Assembly: GCF_006345805.1 (NCBI RefSeq)
Contig: NC_042998.1
Location: 143,096,001-143,160,000, forward strand
Source of the DNA: Octopus sinensis
Lineage: Eukaryota
Direction of reading: 5' to 3'
DNA length: 64,000 nucleotides
In this document: piece by piece, positions 40,004-52,772 of the stretch
How the letters are laid out: each line of letters opens with the position of its first letter
Position numbering within the stretch: position 1 is the stretch's first letter
The notes under the pieces: model-generated
The model's database searches: none
Told to the model about the DNA's origin: nothing
Seen by the model: the letters and a program-made list of their open reading frames with translations, nothing else
Translations under genes and position numbers: made by a program

Positions 40004-40175
40004 ATATTATTAATACACAACTATGAGAGAGAATCCACATAGTGGATTCTCTCTCATAGTTGTGTATTAATAATATTTACTGAATCTCAGTTTTTTATAT
40101 GCTAGGCCACTGGTGTTTAAACTGATGTTATTAAATTAATATCCAATTTTTTCACCCTCTTTTTGACTTTAATTA
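40004..40175. repeat. fold-back element A: perfect 35-bp inverted repeat plus tail in (TA)n
   Basis: 40004-40038 is the exact reverse complement of 40042-40076 (3-nt loop). Confidence 0.9.
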
Positions 40176-40475
40176 TATGTATGTATATATATATATATAT
40201 ATATCATCATCATCATCATCGTTTAACGTCCGCTTTCCATTCTAGCATGCGTTGGACAATTTGACTGAGGACTGGTGAACCAGATTGCTGCACCAGGCTC
40301 CAATCTGATCTGACAGAGTTTCTACAGCTGGATGCCCTTTCTAATGCCAACCACTCCGAGAGTGTAGTGGGTGCTTTTACATGCCACCAGCATGGAAGCC
40401 AGTCAGCTATTCTGGCAGTGATGGTGCTCTTAGCGCTCCACTGGCACGGATGCCAGTCATCGAATTTGCGAATTT

Positions 40476-40853
40476 GTATCAGTTAAAGTAGTGAGGAAGG
40501 CAAGCGATTAGTCAAAGCAGGACTAGGGCGTTTAAATTCATTTAATTCAATCTAAAAATAGTAAAATAATACAAAACTGGTGAAGATAGTAGAGACTATC
40601 TATACTATCTTTACCAGTTTTGTATTATTTTACTGATTTTAGATTGAATAAAATGAATTGAAATGCCATAGTCCTGCCTTGGCTAATTGCTTCCCTTCCT
40701 CACTACTTTAACTGATACGTACTGGTTCAAAAGTAAATTACCAACTGCCTGCTGCTGGTCTAACTGGAATTTTGGAGCGTTACCCATTGGAGCGAGCACT
40801 CAGAAGACATACCTATTTGTTTGGGTTACCTTGACCTAAACTCCTCATATCTT
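40476..40853. repeat. fold-back element B: ~120-bp diverged inverted repeat plus tail
   Basis: GTATCAGTTAAAGTAGTGAGGAAGG... (40476) pairs with ...CCTTCCTCACTACTTTAACTGATAC (40718); centre ~40597. Confidence 0.9.
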
Positions 40854-40854
40854 G

Positions 40855-48930: not shown

Positions 48931-49964
48931 CACCACCACCACCACCACCGCCGCCGCTGCTGCTACTACTACTACTACTACTACTACTACTACTACTACT
49001 ACTACTACTACTACTACTACTACTACCATCACTTGACAATCGATGTTGGTCTGTAACTTACCGGTTTGGTTAAGAGAATGATAGCTTAAGTACCACATTA
49101 AAAAACAAAGTAGTAGTGTCGATTTGTTCAAAACCCTTCTAGGCAGTACCCCTGCATGGTCGCAGTCTTATAAGTGAAACAAGTAAAAGATAAAATATGA
49201 AAGAAATTTATTTTATTGGTTATCAAAAGAAAGGCGATGACAAAGTAAAATTTCAAACTTGATAATGAAAAGAACATGATGTTTTACTTTCCGTCTGTTT
49301 GATAACAGGAATGACATGTCTGATCCAGTGTCGCTGAAAAGGTTGAATTTTTTAAGAATCGGAGCTAAAAGAATGGGAAAGATGAAAAGTTGGCATTCTT
49401 TGGTTTTATGGATATATAACTGCGCGTTGGATAACGAAATCAAAACGATGAGGACAATACAAAAATAGTCTTGATTACCCCGAGTAAGTAAAATGAATCA
49501 GTAAATGCTTAAAAGACATTCTCACAGCTCCGCCAATCCATCGCTTTGGATTTGGTACTTTTTTTTATCGGCCCCGAAATGATGAAAGGCAAATTTGACC
49601 TTGGCAAGATTTGAACTTGGAGCGCAGAGAGATGGAACAGATACCTCAAGGCATTATATCCGACGCACTAACACTTCTGCCAATTCCTTTATAAAGCTGT
49701 GACTGACATAGAATGTTGCACCTCTCTTTAGAACTTTCTGCATCTCTCTGGAAATCTCTGCATCTCTCATAGAACTTCATCTTTCTGCATTTGCTTGGAA
49801 CTCTTTGCATCTTTCAAAGAGCTGTTTCCAGGTATCACCAAGAGGAATTTAGCAAAGTACAATCCCTCGACTTATAAGCTTTGGATATATCTCTCTCGAA
49901 CTTTCTGCACACGCAACCGCCCATCATGCAACAATTAAAACAAGAAAGGCTGCACTAATCTTGT

Positions 49965-50162
49965 TTTCAAATTTTGGTACAAGGCCAGCAATTTCGAAGG
50001 AGGGGGTCTAGTCGATTACATTGACTCCAGTGTTCAACTGGTACTTATTTTATCGACCCCGAAAGGATGAAAGGCCAAGTCGAACTCGACAGAATTCGAA
50101 CCCAGAAATGCCGCTAAGCATTTTGCCCGATGTGCTAACGATTCTGCCGGCTCACCGCCTTA
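49965..50162 (-). mobile_element. Meta-domain-like SINE, well-preserved copy
   Basis: Same family as 1123-1351 and the 36.5-kb array. Other copies near 8645-8812, 25375-25590, 38545-39080 and 58575-58770. Confidence 0.85.
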
Positions 50163-52215
50163 AAAGTCTGCATTAATCTTAACCAGTGTTTTTTCTGTAT
50201 CCCTCACATAAAAAAATATATATGTGAAAAAATTATGGACACTATGCTTCTTTTTTCACACTAACGAATAAACATTCGGTTGTATCTCGGGAGGGTTATT
50301 ATGCTAACAGTAAACACATGCATTTGTATATTATCGTTGGTGTCAAAATGTCCTAATTTCCATTTAATCTGAGTGACTTTTTTTTTTTTTACAATTTCAG
50401 ACAGACAATTAATGTTACTGATCTTAAATATGGCTTAGTGGCATATTTTGGTGGTAAATTAAGGACAGATATTTCGTTTGTATCTAATTGTACTGCACCA
50501 TCTTTCCTGGAGGTGTTGTTCGTCTGTGCATCTGTGTTAATGGCCCTCCCGAGATACAACAAACTACGTTTCAACACACGAGTTCGTATCAAGAATCTTG
50601 CAAACCAAATACAAAAATTAATGCATATTCTCTTGCTATGAATTAACAAACTAATCAGAAAATTCAATTTAATTTATAATTATACTGCTTTACATGCCTT
50701 GCAAGTTAATTGTGAAGCAAGATATGAGGAATATGGATAGTTTAAAACCTTATCGATTCGGCCATTTACGTCACTTCATGACAACTTCTAATTCATTTTC
50801 CACAGGAGGAATTGTTTCTAGTGTAATCATAAGGCTTCAAGTTTTGGTGAGAGGATGGGGTTAATCGATACCACCGGTCCCTGTATTTGACTGGTAATTT
50901 ATTTTATTGATCTTGAAAGGGAGAGTTGACCTCGGCGAAGTTTTCCACAACATCATTGATATTTGAGGAAAGTAGTTCCAATTTGGAATTGGAATCAAGA
51001 TGGAAAGAATATTAGATAGACGAGCAGATTTAGAAAAAAAAAAAAAATGAAGGGAAGTGGGAGAGAGAAAGAGAGTAAAGTACGAGAAAAATGATGGGGG
51101 AGAACATGGAATATATAAAAACAAAGAGAAAGAAGAAAAAAATTGGGATAGATATAAAGAAAAGAGACAAACATAAGAGGTAAAATAACTAAACAAGAAA
51201 ACTTGTTTCGTTTTTGTATTTGCAAGATTCTTGATTTGAACTGGTAGGTTGAAACATATTTTTTTTGTATCTCGGGAGCGTCATTATGTCAATAACAAAC
51301 AAAAAGATTTGAAGCAGATCTGGGTTAGAACAGGTGTGACATTGATGGGGCCGTGAATGGCAACGAGAGGACTTTGACAAACAGATGATTGATTGATTGA
51401 CCGAATGATTGATAAAACAATCGATTAGTTAATTGGCTAAATGTTTGACCAATTGACTAATATAAAAAAATATAAAGAAGTGACATAGAACGAGTGCGTG
51501 TGTTTACTATTGACATAAAGACCCTTCCAATATACAACAAAAAAAACTTGTTACGAACGAGAAAAATCCTTAGAGAAAAGTTAGCTTGACAGAAAAAAAG
51601 TGAAAAAGAGAGTGTGTTTGTGTTAGAGAGAAGGAGAAAAACAGATACATAGAGAGATAGATGGAGAGAGAGAGAGAGAGAGAGAGAGAGGGGAGAGACG
51701 GGAAGAGAGAAAGATAGTTTGTGAGAGGTATATAGAGTAGAAGGGATTGTGAGTATATGGGCAAGAAATATTGGAAGAGAGGAAACAGAAAAATGAAATT
51801 GAAAGAAAATTCAATTGAAATGATAAGCAAAATGCTGGATGAATTGAAGGTCTTTAATGGTCATATTTTTATTTTTAGAGAAAAACAGTTTTAATGTAAT
51901 TGATGTGAATTTGTTGCGACCAAATTCATGTCATTGGCGCCTGCATGAATATACGGTTAAGAAGTTCGGTCGCAACCACCTGGTTTCGGGTTTAGTCCCA
52001 TAGCCGGACACCTTGGGTAAGTTTATTTTGCTATAGATTCGAGCCAACCAAAGCCTTGTGTGTGAATTTGGTGGACGGAAACTGCCTGGAAGCTTCTCAT
52101 ATCTATATAATATATATATATATAATATATATATATATAATATATATATATTATATATATATATATCTATATATATACTATACCATATATATATATATAT
52201 ATATATATATATATA

Positions 52216-52772
52216 AGAGATAATGGTGTCTTTGAGATCCAAAGGTGTCAGGTAATGCTGAATAAGTGCTATAGACAGACCATAGTTAAGTTCCAGATTT
52301 GTTAATTTTGCGAATAAGGGGTTCAACGCTGGTTCTATGTCAGCGTGTGTATATAAGAATTTTTTGCGTAATACGATAAAAGAAACCAAGACTGTGTAGA
52401 TATTAGAGCATTTATAGATAGAAGGTCTTACAGCTGTTTCTGGGATATTTATTAATTATATCTCTTCATCGGAGGCGGTGTGAGAGGATGGTTAAGTCAT
52501 AGTTTAGATGTGATACAAAATAGAGAGTGAGGTGGAGGAAAGAAAATAGATGCATACATATCTTGTATCTATTTTCTTTCCCCCACCTCACTCTCTATTT
52601 TGTATCACATCTAAACTAACTATGACTTAACCATCCTCTCACACCATCTCCGATGAAGGGATATAATTAATAAGTATCCTAGAAACAGCTGTAAGACTTT
52701 CTATCTATAAATGCTCTAATATCTACACAGCCTTGGTTTTTTTTAATCTTATTACGCAAATAATTCTTATAT
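52216..52772. mobile_element. fold-back element E with hammerhead-like motifs (putative Penelope-like/retrozyme-type non-autonomous element)
   Basis: ~205-bp diverged inverted arms 52351-52772, a 135-bp tail on the left and (TA)n on both flanks. Confidence 0.7.
52646..52697 (+). ncRNA. minimal type-I hammerhead ribozyme-like motif (mirror copy on - strand at 52425-52476)
   Basis: atct-CCGATGA-a-gggatat..loop..gtatcct-a-GAAA-CAGCTG-TA-agac. Core is a CUGAUGA variant (U4C) with stem II, GAAA, palindromic stem III ACAGCTGT, GUA cleavage triplet and stem I tct/aga. Confidence 0.65.

What the first reader, a model, noticed from the sequence alone, without database searches (positions are those of the whole stretch)
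40004..52772. Recurrent architecture: unrelated hairpin-plus-tail inserts in TA microsatellites, five within 13 kb
Seen: elements A (40004), B (40476), C (41889 and its duplicate), D (47021) and E (52216) share no obvious sequence. Each is an inverted repeat (35, ~120, 41, 153 and ~205 bp arms; short loop) with one arm extended by a ~100-135 bp unique tail ending at TA/TG-rich microsatellite. All but B have (TA)n on both sides. Arm identity ranges from 100% to ~88%, implying events of different ages. Ordinary MITEs are symmetric and have no one-sided tail. Inference: a common mechanism, such as PLE-type reverse transcription with fold-back/template switching primed at (TA)n, repeatedly deposits dsRNA- or cruciform-forming cassettes. 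C and E sit in the internal TA hub of the commonest SINE.
Basis: partly seen in the sequence, partly recalled or inferred. Interest (0 to 1): 0.75.

Follow-up and report, generated by a model that had tools for sequence, protein, structure and literature searches.

The report
Penelope retrotransposon footprints in TA repeats
Five short hairpin-plus-tail inserts in TA repeats are real and likely the known footprint of Penelope-type jumping genes (well supported for one, which carries a hammerhead-like self-cutting RNA motif), and other copies of that one often stop at the motif's predicted cut site, a hint that cut RNA may be what gets copied.

Summary
The five hairpin-plus-tail inserts are real. 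An inverted 5'-truncated copy plus a one-sided tail, with a (TA)n target, is the published signature of Penelope-like elements (PLEs).

E fits best. Both arms carry a PLE-type type I hammerhead. Independent assemblies show thousands of related contigs, a tail ending at (TA)n, sequence continuing past E's fold point, and many different head-to-head junctions. Seven of 18 printed junctions stop within 9 nt of the predicted hammerhead cut site, which hints that cleaved RNA is copied in vivo.

A and C are also dispersed families, and C is strongly 3'-biased. The A-C and C-D tails are weakly alike, so 'unrelated' is overstated. B is low-copy and least certain. D had no read test. No PLE ORF was found. 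The C duplicate shows single-copy depth in two other samples.

All the hairpins lie in a 16-kb CpG-rich block that is likely unmethylated and probably intergenic, which likely explains the clustering. Tails of 92-134 nt exceed the published 30-40 nt. Verdict: new members of a known kind, with one testable mechanistic lead.

The parts
40001..40172 (+). Element A: arms 40001-40038/40042-40079, tail 40080-40172, then (TA)n; dispersed family; no hammerhead
   Evidence: summed depth 23,600-33,400 (X1) and 5,100-14,100 (X3) against about 50 and 22 in single-copy DNA
40476..40852 (+). Element B: arms 40476-40595/40599-40718 (90%), tail 40719-40852; low copy; a paralogue shares the arm and only the first 31 nt of the tail
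   Evidence: depth 128-468 (X1) and 46-240 (X3); pieces 3, 4, 13, 14 bridge the left border and arm-plus-tail; pieces 5 and 15 stop at 40749
41886..42081 (+). Element C1: arms 41886-41929/41946-41989, TA-rich loop beside a 19-nt mini-palindrome, tail 41990-42081; in a SINE TA hub; high-copy family with 3' bias
   Evidence: depth 46,000 in the arm bin against 1,065,000 and 330,000 in the tail bins (X1), and 15,500 against 253,000 and 72,000 (X3)
43130..43326 (+). C2, copy of C1 inside a tandem duplication (about 40852-42097 / 42098-43345); likely a false or private duplication
   Evidence: differences are mostly run-length indels plus 3 substitutions; single-copy depth at 41252-41391 in both runs
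47012..47477 (+). Element D: arms 47012-47173/47193-47354 (99%), each with a 23-nt tandem pair; tail 47355-47477; long (TA)n on both sides; 3' end resembles C
   Evidence: no read data laid
52216..52773 (-). Element E: tail 52216-52349, arms 52350-52554/52564-52773 (92%); sense strand reads outward from the centre; very high-copy family
52646..52697 (+). PLE-type type I hammerhead in E's right arm: core CCGATGA 52650-52656, one unpaired A, helix II 52658-52663/52675-52680, GAAA 52682-52685, palindromic helix III, predicted cut between 52693 and 52694
   Evidence: (strongest hit in the window); traits compared with PMC4209133
52425..52476 (-). Mirror hammerhead in E's left arm; predicted cut between 52429 and 52428, where family junctions pile up
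   Evidence: tables 5 and 5c
45112..45426 (.).
40001..56000 (.). CpG-rich block (observed/expected 0.57-0.91 in 8 of 8 two-kb bins) holding all the hairpins; likely unmethylated, probably intergenic
   Evidence: only 2 of the other 24 bins exceed 0.44

Best explanation
These are likely short, 5'-truncated insertions made by Penelope-like retroelement (PLE) enzymes from several families, well supported for E and inferred for A, C and D, with B least certain. Inferred mechanism: the PLE GIY-YIG endonuclease cuts both strands in a (TA)n run. Each broken end primes reverse transcription on the element's RNA at one of two fixed start sites 92-134 nt apart, the inner one at a short TA-rich word. Both cDNAs stop early at independent points and are joined head-to-head, often through a few matching bases. 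The stretch copied twice is the inverted repeat, and the stretch between the two start sites is the tail. In E's family the cDNA often appears to run off at the hammerhead cut site, which would mean that self-cleaved RNA is one of the templates. E itself extends about 130 nt past that site, so uncut RNA also serves. The copies here encode no protein and are likely inert remnants.
For: Shown here: (1) E carries a hammerhead with the traits listed for PLE ribozymes, on opposite strands about 200 nt apart (PMC4209133 describes such opposite-strand pairs as probably truncated PLEs). (2) 5,959-8,162 contigs per run lie on E in 4 of 4 runs, tail included. Loose ends at 52212 are (TA)n (X3, X5), loose ends at 52742 run into TA repeats, and loose ends at 52552-52553 show that the element continues past E's fold point. 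(3) 18 distinct same-strand junctions give tail-side lengths of 75-337 nt and arm-side lengths of 32-131 nt that vary independently. (4) 7 of 18 tail-side ends fall in 52420-52428 (binomial p about 1e-6 under a uniform, independent null). Three different partner sites share the TCT that ends exactly at 52428. (5) A and C are dispersed families, and C's tail bin is about 16-23 times deeper than its arm bin. (6) The arms of A, C, D and E end at an internal TA-rich word. (7) No terminal inverted repeat in 5 of 5 of A-E, while control F has one. Literature: an inverted truncated copy plus tail, and (TA)n preference (PMC8557442); the tail is the distance between two RT start sites, and both strands are cut and extended (PMC11167929).
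Against: No PLE RT or GIY-YIG ORF was found: 0 of 32 frames scanned gave a GIY-YIG match, and the RT matches lie 20 kb or more away. The parent elements are therefore unseen. A, B, C and D have no hammerhead, and their motifs do not match the published Naiad consensus sequences (line breaks can hide matches). Tails are 3-4 times the published 30-40 nt. A shows no 3' bias. B is low-copy, lacks a left (TA)n and may have a composite tail. E's hammerhead departs from the consensus (C at core position 4, one extra base before GAAA), and cleavage is untested. In the anole PLE, cleavage was not needed in vitro and no RNA reads ended at the cut site. The junction counts use only the printed best-supported rows (15 of 147 and 12 of 93), and copies share ancestry. 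The structured ribozyme could also simply stall RT. No target-site duplication can be read in (TA)n.
Confidence: 0.72

Rival explanations
1. DNA repair captures: a break at a (TA)n cruciform is patched with a fragment of some repeat that snapped back and copied itself (polymerase-theta-like templated insertion), with no PLE enzyme. This would apply mostly to B and D.
For: B is low-copy and lacks a left (TA)n. C has a mini-palindrome at its junction. All inserts are at TA-rich sites. The pathway is recalled, not read.
Against: E's family has fixed outer ends and a hammerhead. A and C are high-copy families. C and D share a terminal motif right before (TA)n, which random capture would not give.
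Confidence: 0.12
2. A, C and D are ends of DNA transposons or Helentron-like elements with an inverted partial duplication or a built-in subterminal hairpin, as with F.
For: F gives the same outline from an element with terminal inverted repeats. A shows arm and tail at similar depth. A, C and D have no hammerhead.
Against: There is no terminal inverted repeat in A-E (p 0.12-1.0). C's family is 3'-biased. F's loop is the (TA)n target itself, unlike A, B, D and E.
Confidence: 0.12
3. The palindromes are assembly or library chimeras.
For: A, C and D have 97-99% identical arms. No printed contig spans any of these hairpins end to end. The C duplication does look false or private.
Against: B and E arms differ by 8-10%. 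Other runs hold B's left border and its arm-plus-tail (pieces 3, 4, 13, 14). They also hold head-to-head E-family junctions, including a 330-nt contig with 136 nt on its shorter side. Arms stop at element-internal TA words.
Confidence: 0.04

Closest known systems
EN+ Penelope-like element insertions with inverted pLTR and tail (Craig et al. 2021, PMC8557442: passages, section 7, supplement part 1 and two supplement searches seen; Arkhipova et al. 2013, PMC3846280: passages)
   Same: Inverted 5'-truncated copy at the 5' end, one-sided tail, palindromes at the inverted junction, microsatellite bias; short 3' ends dominate.
   Different: Tails here are 92-134 nt against 30-40 nt; no ORF or direct pLTR in these copies; the clade cannot be assigned.
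PLE minimal hammerheads (Cervera and de la Pena 2014, PMC4209133; parts 1-2 of 4 read)
   Same: E: long helix II, 4-bp helix I (with the family's majority base at 52646), unpaired base between 9 and 10.1, palindromic helix III, pair on opposite strands within 100-700 bp.
   Different: C at core position 4 (both arms) and one extra base before GAAA; activity untested.
Poseidon element of Anolis, PAc (Frangieh et al. 2024, PMC11167929; parts 1-2 of 4 read)
   Same: Two fixed RT start sites define the tail; both strands of AT-rich DNA are cut and extended.
   Different: There, hammerhead cleavage was dispensable and unseen in RNA reads; here, genomic junctions pile up at the predicted cut site.
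Naiad PLEs of Octopus (Naiad_Obim, Naiad_Ovul, Naiad_Omin; PMC8557442 supplement)
   Same: (TA)n preference; no canonical hammerhead, as for A, C and D.
   Different: No motif match to the published consensus sequences. The paper calls cephalopod Naiads long-inactive remnants, whereas A, C and D have near-identical arms.
Metazoan non-LTR retrozymes (PMC7229834, passages; bioRxiv 10.64898/2026.07.22.740005, parts 1-2 of 5, supplements not seen)
   Same: Non-coding, hammerhead-bearing, linked to PLE pLTRs, enriched between genes.
   Different: Defined by tandem units; E is a head-to-head pair, and no tandem unit was seen here.

Membership tests
Penelope-like elements (EN+) | ORF with telomerase-like RT and GIY-YIG endonuclease | tested here: inconclusive
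   None in or beside A-E (32 of 104 frames plus none for the inserts themselves, which hold no frame of PLE size). Truncated copies are not expected to hold it, and the parent could not be reached.
Penelope-like elements (EN+) | Inverted 5'-truncated copy joined at the 5' end | tested here: met
   A-E geometry; for E, head-to-head polarity fixed by the hammerhead and variable junctions.
Penelope-like elements (EN+) | One-sided tail, 30-40 bp as published | tested here: inconclusive
   One-sided in 5 of 5, but 92-134 nt long; only B may have a 31-nt tail.
Penelope-like elements (EN+) | Type I minimal hammerhead in the pLTR (canonical clades) | tested here: met
   Met for E only, with two departures; absent in A-D.
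Penelope-like elements (EN+) | Fixed 3' end with variable 5' truncation across copies | tested here: met
   E: loose ends and joints. C: 3'-biased depth. Not seen for A; not tested for D; unclear for B.
Penelope-like elements (EN+) | Direct tandem pLTR | tested here: not met
   No direct second copy in any of A-E; expected only in longer insertions.
Naiad clade | N-terminal GIY-YIG, CxC motif, C-terminal RT | not testable with these tools
   No coding part available; no motif match to published Naiad consensus sequences.
Naiad clade | (TA)n insertion preference | tested here: met
   A, C, D and E have (TA)n on both sides; E family loose ends.
MITE / TIR DNA transposon | Terminal inverted repeats at both outer ends | tested here: not met
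   Not found in A-E; found in F.
Non-LTR retrozyme | Tandem units each with a type I hammerhead | tested here: not met
   E has two motifs on opposite strands and no tandem unit; other loci of the family were not examined for tandems.
Hammerhead ribozyme | Self-cleavage of the RNA | not testable with these tools
   Needs an in vitro assay.

The most novel reading that the evidence does not exclude
Genomic copies record that hammerhead self-cleavage sets the 5' end of the RNA that a PLE copies in vivo, with both ends of one (TA)n break primed at two fixed sites over 90 nt apart. A, C and D are a clan of short non-coding, hammerhead-less PLE parasites that share a 3' recognition motif.
Probability: 0.3. 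Interest if true: 0.6.

Novelty: new member of a known kind. Interest (0 to 1): 0.33.

Why it matters
Two things keep some value. First, how PLEs form their inverted ends and what their hammerhead does are open questions (PMC8557442, PMC11167929). E's very large family offers a direct count of where cDNAs start and stop, and the printed junctions point to the ribozyme cut site. I did not find this stated in the papers I read from searches; most subscription papers are not in the library. Second, such short palindromic inserts are easily mislabelled as MITEs, microRNA hairpins or assembly errors.

Tried and rejected
No whole genome is held, so the genome-wide inverted-repeat survey could not be run. 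Pattern scans for E's hammerhead in metagenome and viral contigs and for a SINE motif in metagenome contigs found 0. Rfam gave only generic microRNA-hairpin matches below gathering scores and no hammerhead family. Pfam on 32 of the 104 open frames of at least 85 aa gave RT fragments at 13-14 and 19 kb and MRP-S27 exons, and nothing at A-E. Motif searches of the Naiad, Chlamys and Hydra consensus file found no real match. A profile of the A, C and D tails found no further copy in the window. The C/D end motif occurs exactly only at C1, C2 and D; the 2-mismatch count of 5 is near chance (4 of 100 shuffles). I looked for hammerhead cores in any strand order in A-D: D has a damaged core after a GAAA and C a damaged core before one, neither convincing. 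The D tail against E's reverse tail scored p<0.001, but it is the opposite sense and one of 20 tests, so I set it aside. B-E 3' ends at p=0.009 do not survive 10 tests. Three of 5 opposite-strand joints are arm-switch readings of indels and were dropped; adding the 2 real ones makes the pile-up 7 of 20. No RNA holder was listed, which says nothing about expression. Earlier-finding look-ups by sequence, by words and near the place were empty.
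Full report
Observation. Arm identity is 37/38 (A), 108/120 (B), 43/44 (C), 161/162 (D) and 193/210 (E), and the tails are 93, 134, 92, 123 and 134 nt. The host is an animal: MRP-S27 exons lie on the minus strand. That it is an octopus rests on my recall of its SINEs and on earlier AI notes, not on a naming call. No genome is held.

What is known. Craig et al. 2021 (PMC8557442) describe PLE insertions as highly 5'-truncated, often with an inverted truncated copy at the 5' end and a 30-40 bp tail at one end. 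They name (TA)n as the preferred Naiad target, including in three Octopus species. Arkhipova et al. 2013 note palindromes at the inverted junction, mostly head-to-head. Frangieh et al. 2024 show that an anole PLE cuts and extends both strands of AT-rich DNA and that the tail is the distance between two RT start sites. A strongly truncated PLE insertion therefore reduces to arm, loop, arm and tail.

Element E. A relaxed hammerhead scan of both strands gives its strongest hit at 52650: core CCGATGA, one unpaired A, a 6-bp helix II, GAAA, a palindromic helix III and GTA, with a mirror copy in the left arm. The family's majority base at 52646 completes a 4-bp helix I. These are the traits listed for PLE hammerheads, and opposite-strand pairs 100-700 bp apart were already noted as probable truncated PLEs. 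Two departures, C at position 4 and an extra base before GAAA, leave activity open. Four runs from four studies laid 6,764, 7,814, 5,959 and 8,162 contigs on E, covering arms and tail. Loose ends show (TA)n beyond the tail and TA repeats beyond the arm end, and they show that the element goes on past E's fold point. The printed joints (15 of 147 rows, plus 12 of 93 rows with letters between) give 18 distinct same-strand head-to-head junctions. Tail-side lengths are 75-337 nt and arm-side lengths 32-131 nt. In some the two pieces do not overlap at all, which favours two separately primed cDNAs over one fold-back. Positions of rows with letters between are approximate.

The cut-site lead. The predicted cleavage product begins at 52428 (left arm) or 52694 (right arm). 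Seven of the 18 tail-side ends fall in 52420-52428 (p about 1e-6 if uniform and independent), and 10 of 18 arm-side ends fall in 52700-52707. Three joints from 52425 go to three different partners, each beginning TCT, so each can be read as a cDNA ending exactly at 52428 and joined by 3 matching bases. One of these is present in 4 of 4 runs. This suggests that cleaved RNA is copied in vivo. Against it: only best-supported rows were printed, copies share ancestry, a folded ribozyme could stall RT, E itself runs about 130 nt past the site, and cleavage was dispensable for the anole element.

Elements A-D. On 39992-42088 in two runs, single-copy DNA has depth about 50 and 22. A reaches 23,600-33,400 and 5,100-14,100. 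C's arm bin has 46,000 and 15,500, and its tail bins up to 1,065,000 and 253,000. These sums are not copy numbers, but they show dispersed families and a 3' bias in C that A lacks. The joints and loose ends printed in that call were dominated by SINEs, so fold-point variation in A and C was not seen. B has depth 128-468 and 46-240. Contigs bridge its left border (40386-40554, 40447-40560) and its right arm with tail (40596/40605-40848). A paralogue follows the arm and 31 nt of tail to 40749 and then diverges, so B's true tail may be of canonical size. A-C2 and C2-D tails are weakly alike (8 of 2941 and 9 of 2947 random segments score as well), and the C-D terminal 30 nt match at p=0.0007. A's majority letters at 40106 and 40122 match C in the alignment. 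A-D shows no likeness. None of A-D has a hammerhead or a terminal inverted repeat. The arms of A, C, D and E end at an internal TA-rich word, as a second priming site on a (TA)n target would.

Controls and context. F (45112-45426) is an element with 36-nt terminal inverted repeats plus an inverted piece of its left end, so the outline alone does not prove a PLE. C2 lies in a 1.24-kb tandem duplication with mostly run-length differences. Its unique part has single-copy depth in both runs, so it is false or private. The clustering is more than chance (p about 0.006-0.007) and coincides with a block of CpG observed/expected 0.57-0.91 at 40-56 kb; only 2 of the other 24 bins exceed 0.44. Octopus methylation marks gene bodies (PMC9476566, abstract only), so the block is likely unmethylated and probably intergenic. 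Whether insertion prefers it or introns purge hairpins is untested.

Verdict. The feature is real and mostly explained. E works like, and very likely is, the end of a hammerhead-bearing PLE or a non-coding derivative. A, C and D likely arose the same way, but formal membership is unproven without a parent ORF. B is uncertain. Earlier AI notes on this genome reach a similar two-arm reading for other families; they are leads, not support. Supplements of the bioRxiv preprint were not seen and may bear on retrozyme status. Interest 0.33, mainly for the long tails and the cut-site pile-up.

Noticed in passing
window 15394-15864, 20189-20587, 22984-23379 (minus strand); candidate first exon from 35648 downward: Exons of mitochondrial ribosomal protein S27 (Pfam MRP-S27). 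A presequence-like frame starts at 35648 in a CpG-rich bin; its link to the gene is inferred.
   Followed up: partly
window 45112-45426: Element with 36-nt terminal inverted repeats and an inverted copy of its left end across (TA)7, ending in an (ATCT)n run.
   Followed up: partly
window 52858-52996: Unique 139-nt segment between TA runs right of E. It starts with the same 12 letters that end E's right arm, which may be a target remnant or microhomology.
   Followed up: partly
window 40852-43345: 1.24-kb tandem duplication with borders in SINE TA/TG hubs; single-copy depth in two other samples, which also carry small deletions at 41241 and 41269.
   Followed up: yes
window 43846-44042, 50538-51286, 7758-8176, 8260-8537, 35936-36359: Other inverted repeats with longer loops or older arms, not flanked by (TA)n. 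44020-44098, 50539-50617, 51206-51285 and 1031-1102 belong to one family.
   Followed up: no
window 12242-15158 (+) and 18890-19474 (-): Broken LINE-type reverse transcriptase frames; one frame also has a PHD-finger match.
   Followed up: no
window 47570-48070 and 48690-48920: Stretches that look by eye like decayed LINE endonuclease fragments (recalled likeness; the one frame scanned there had no Pfam match).
   Followed up: no
window 53630-53729: Assembly gap of 100 N.
   Followed up: no
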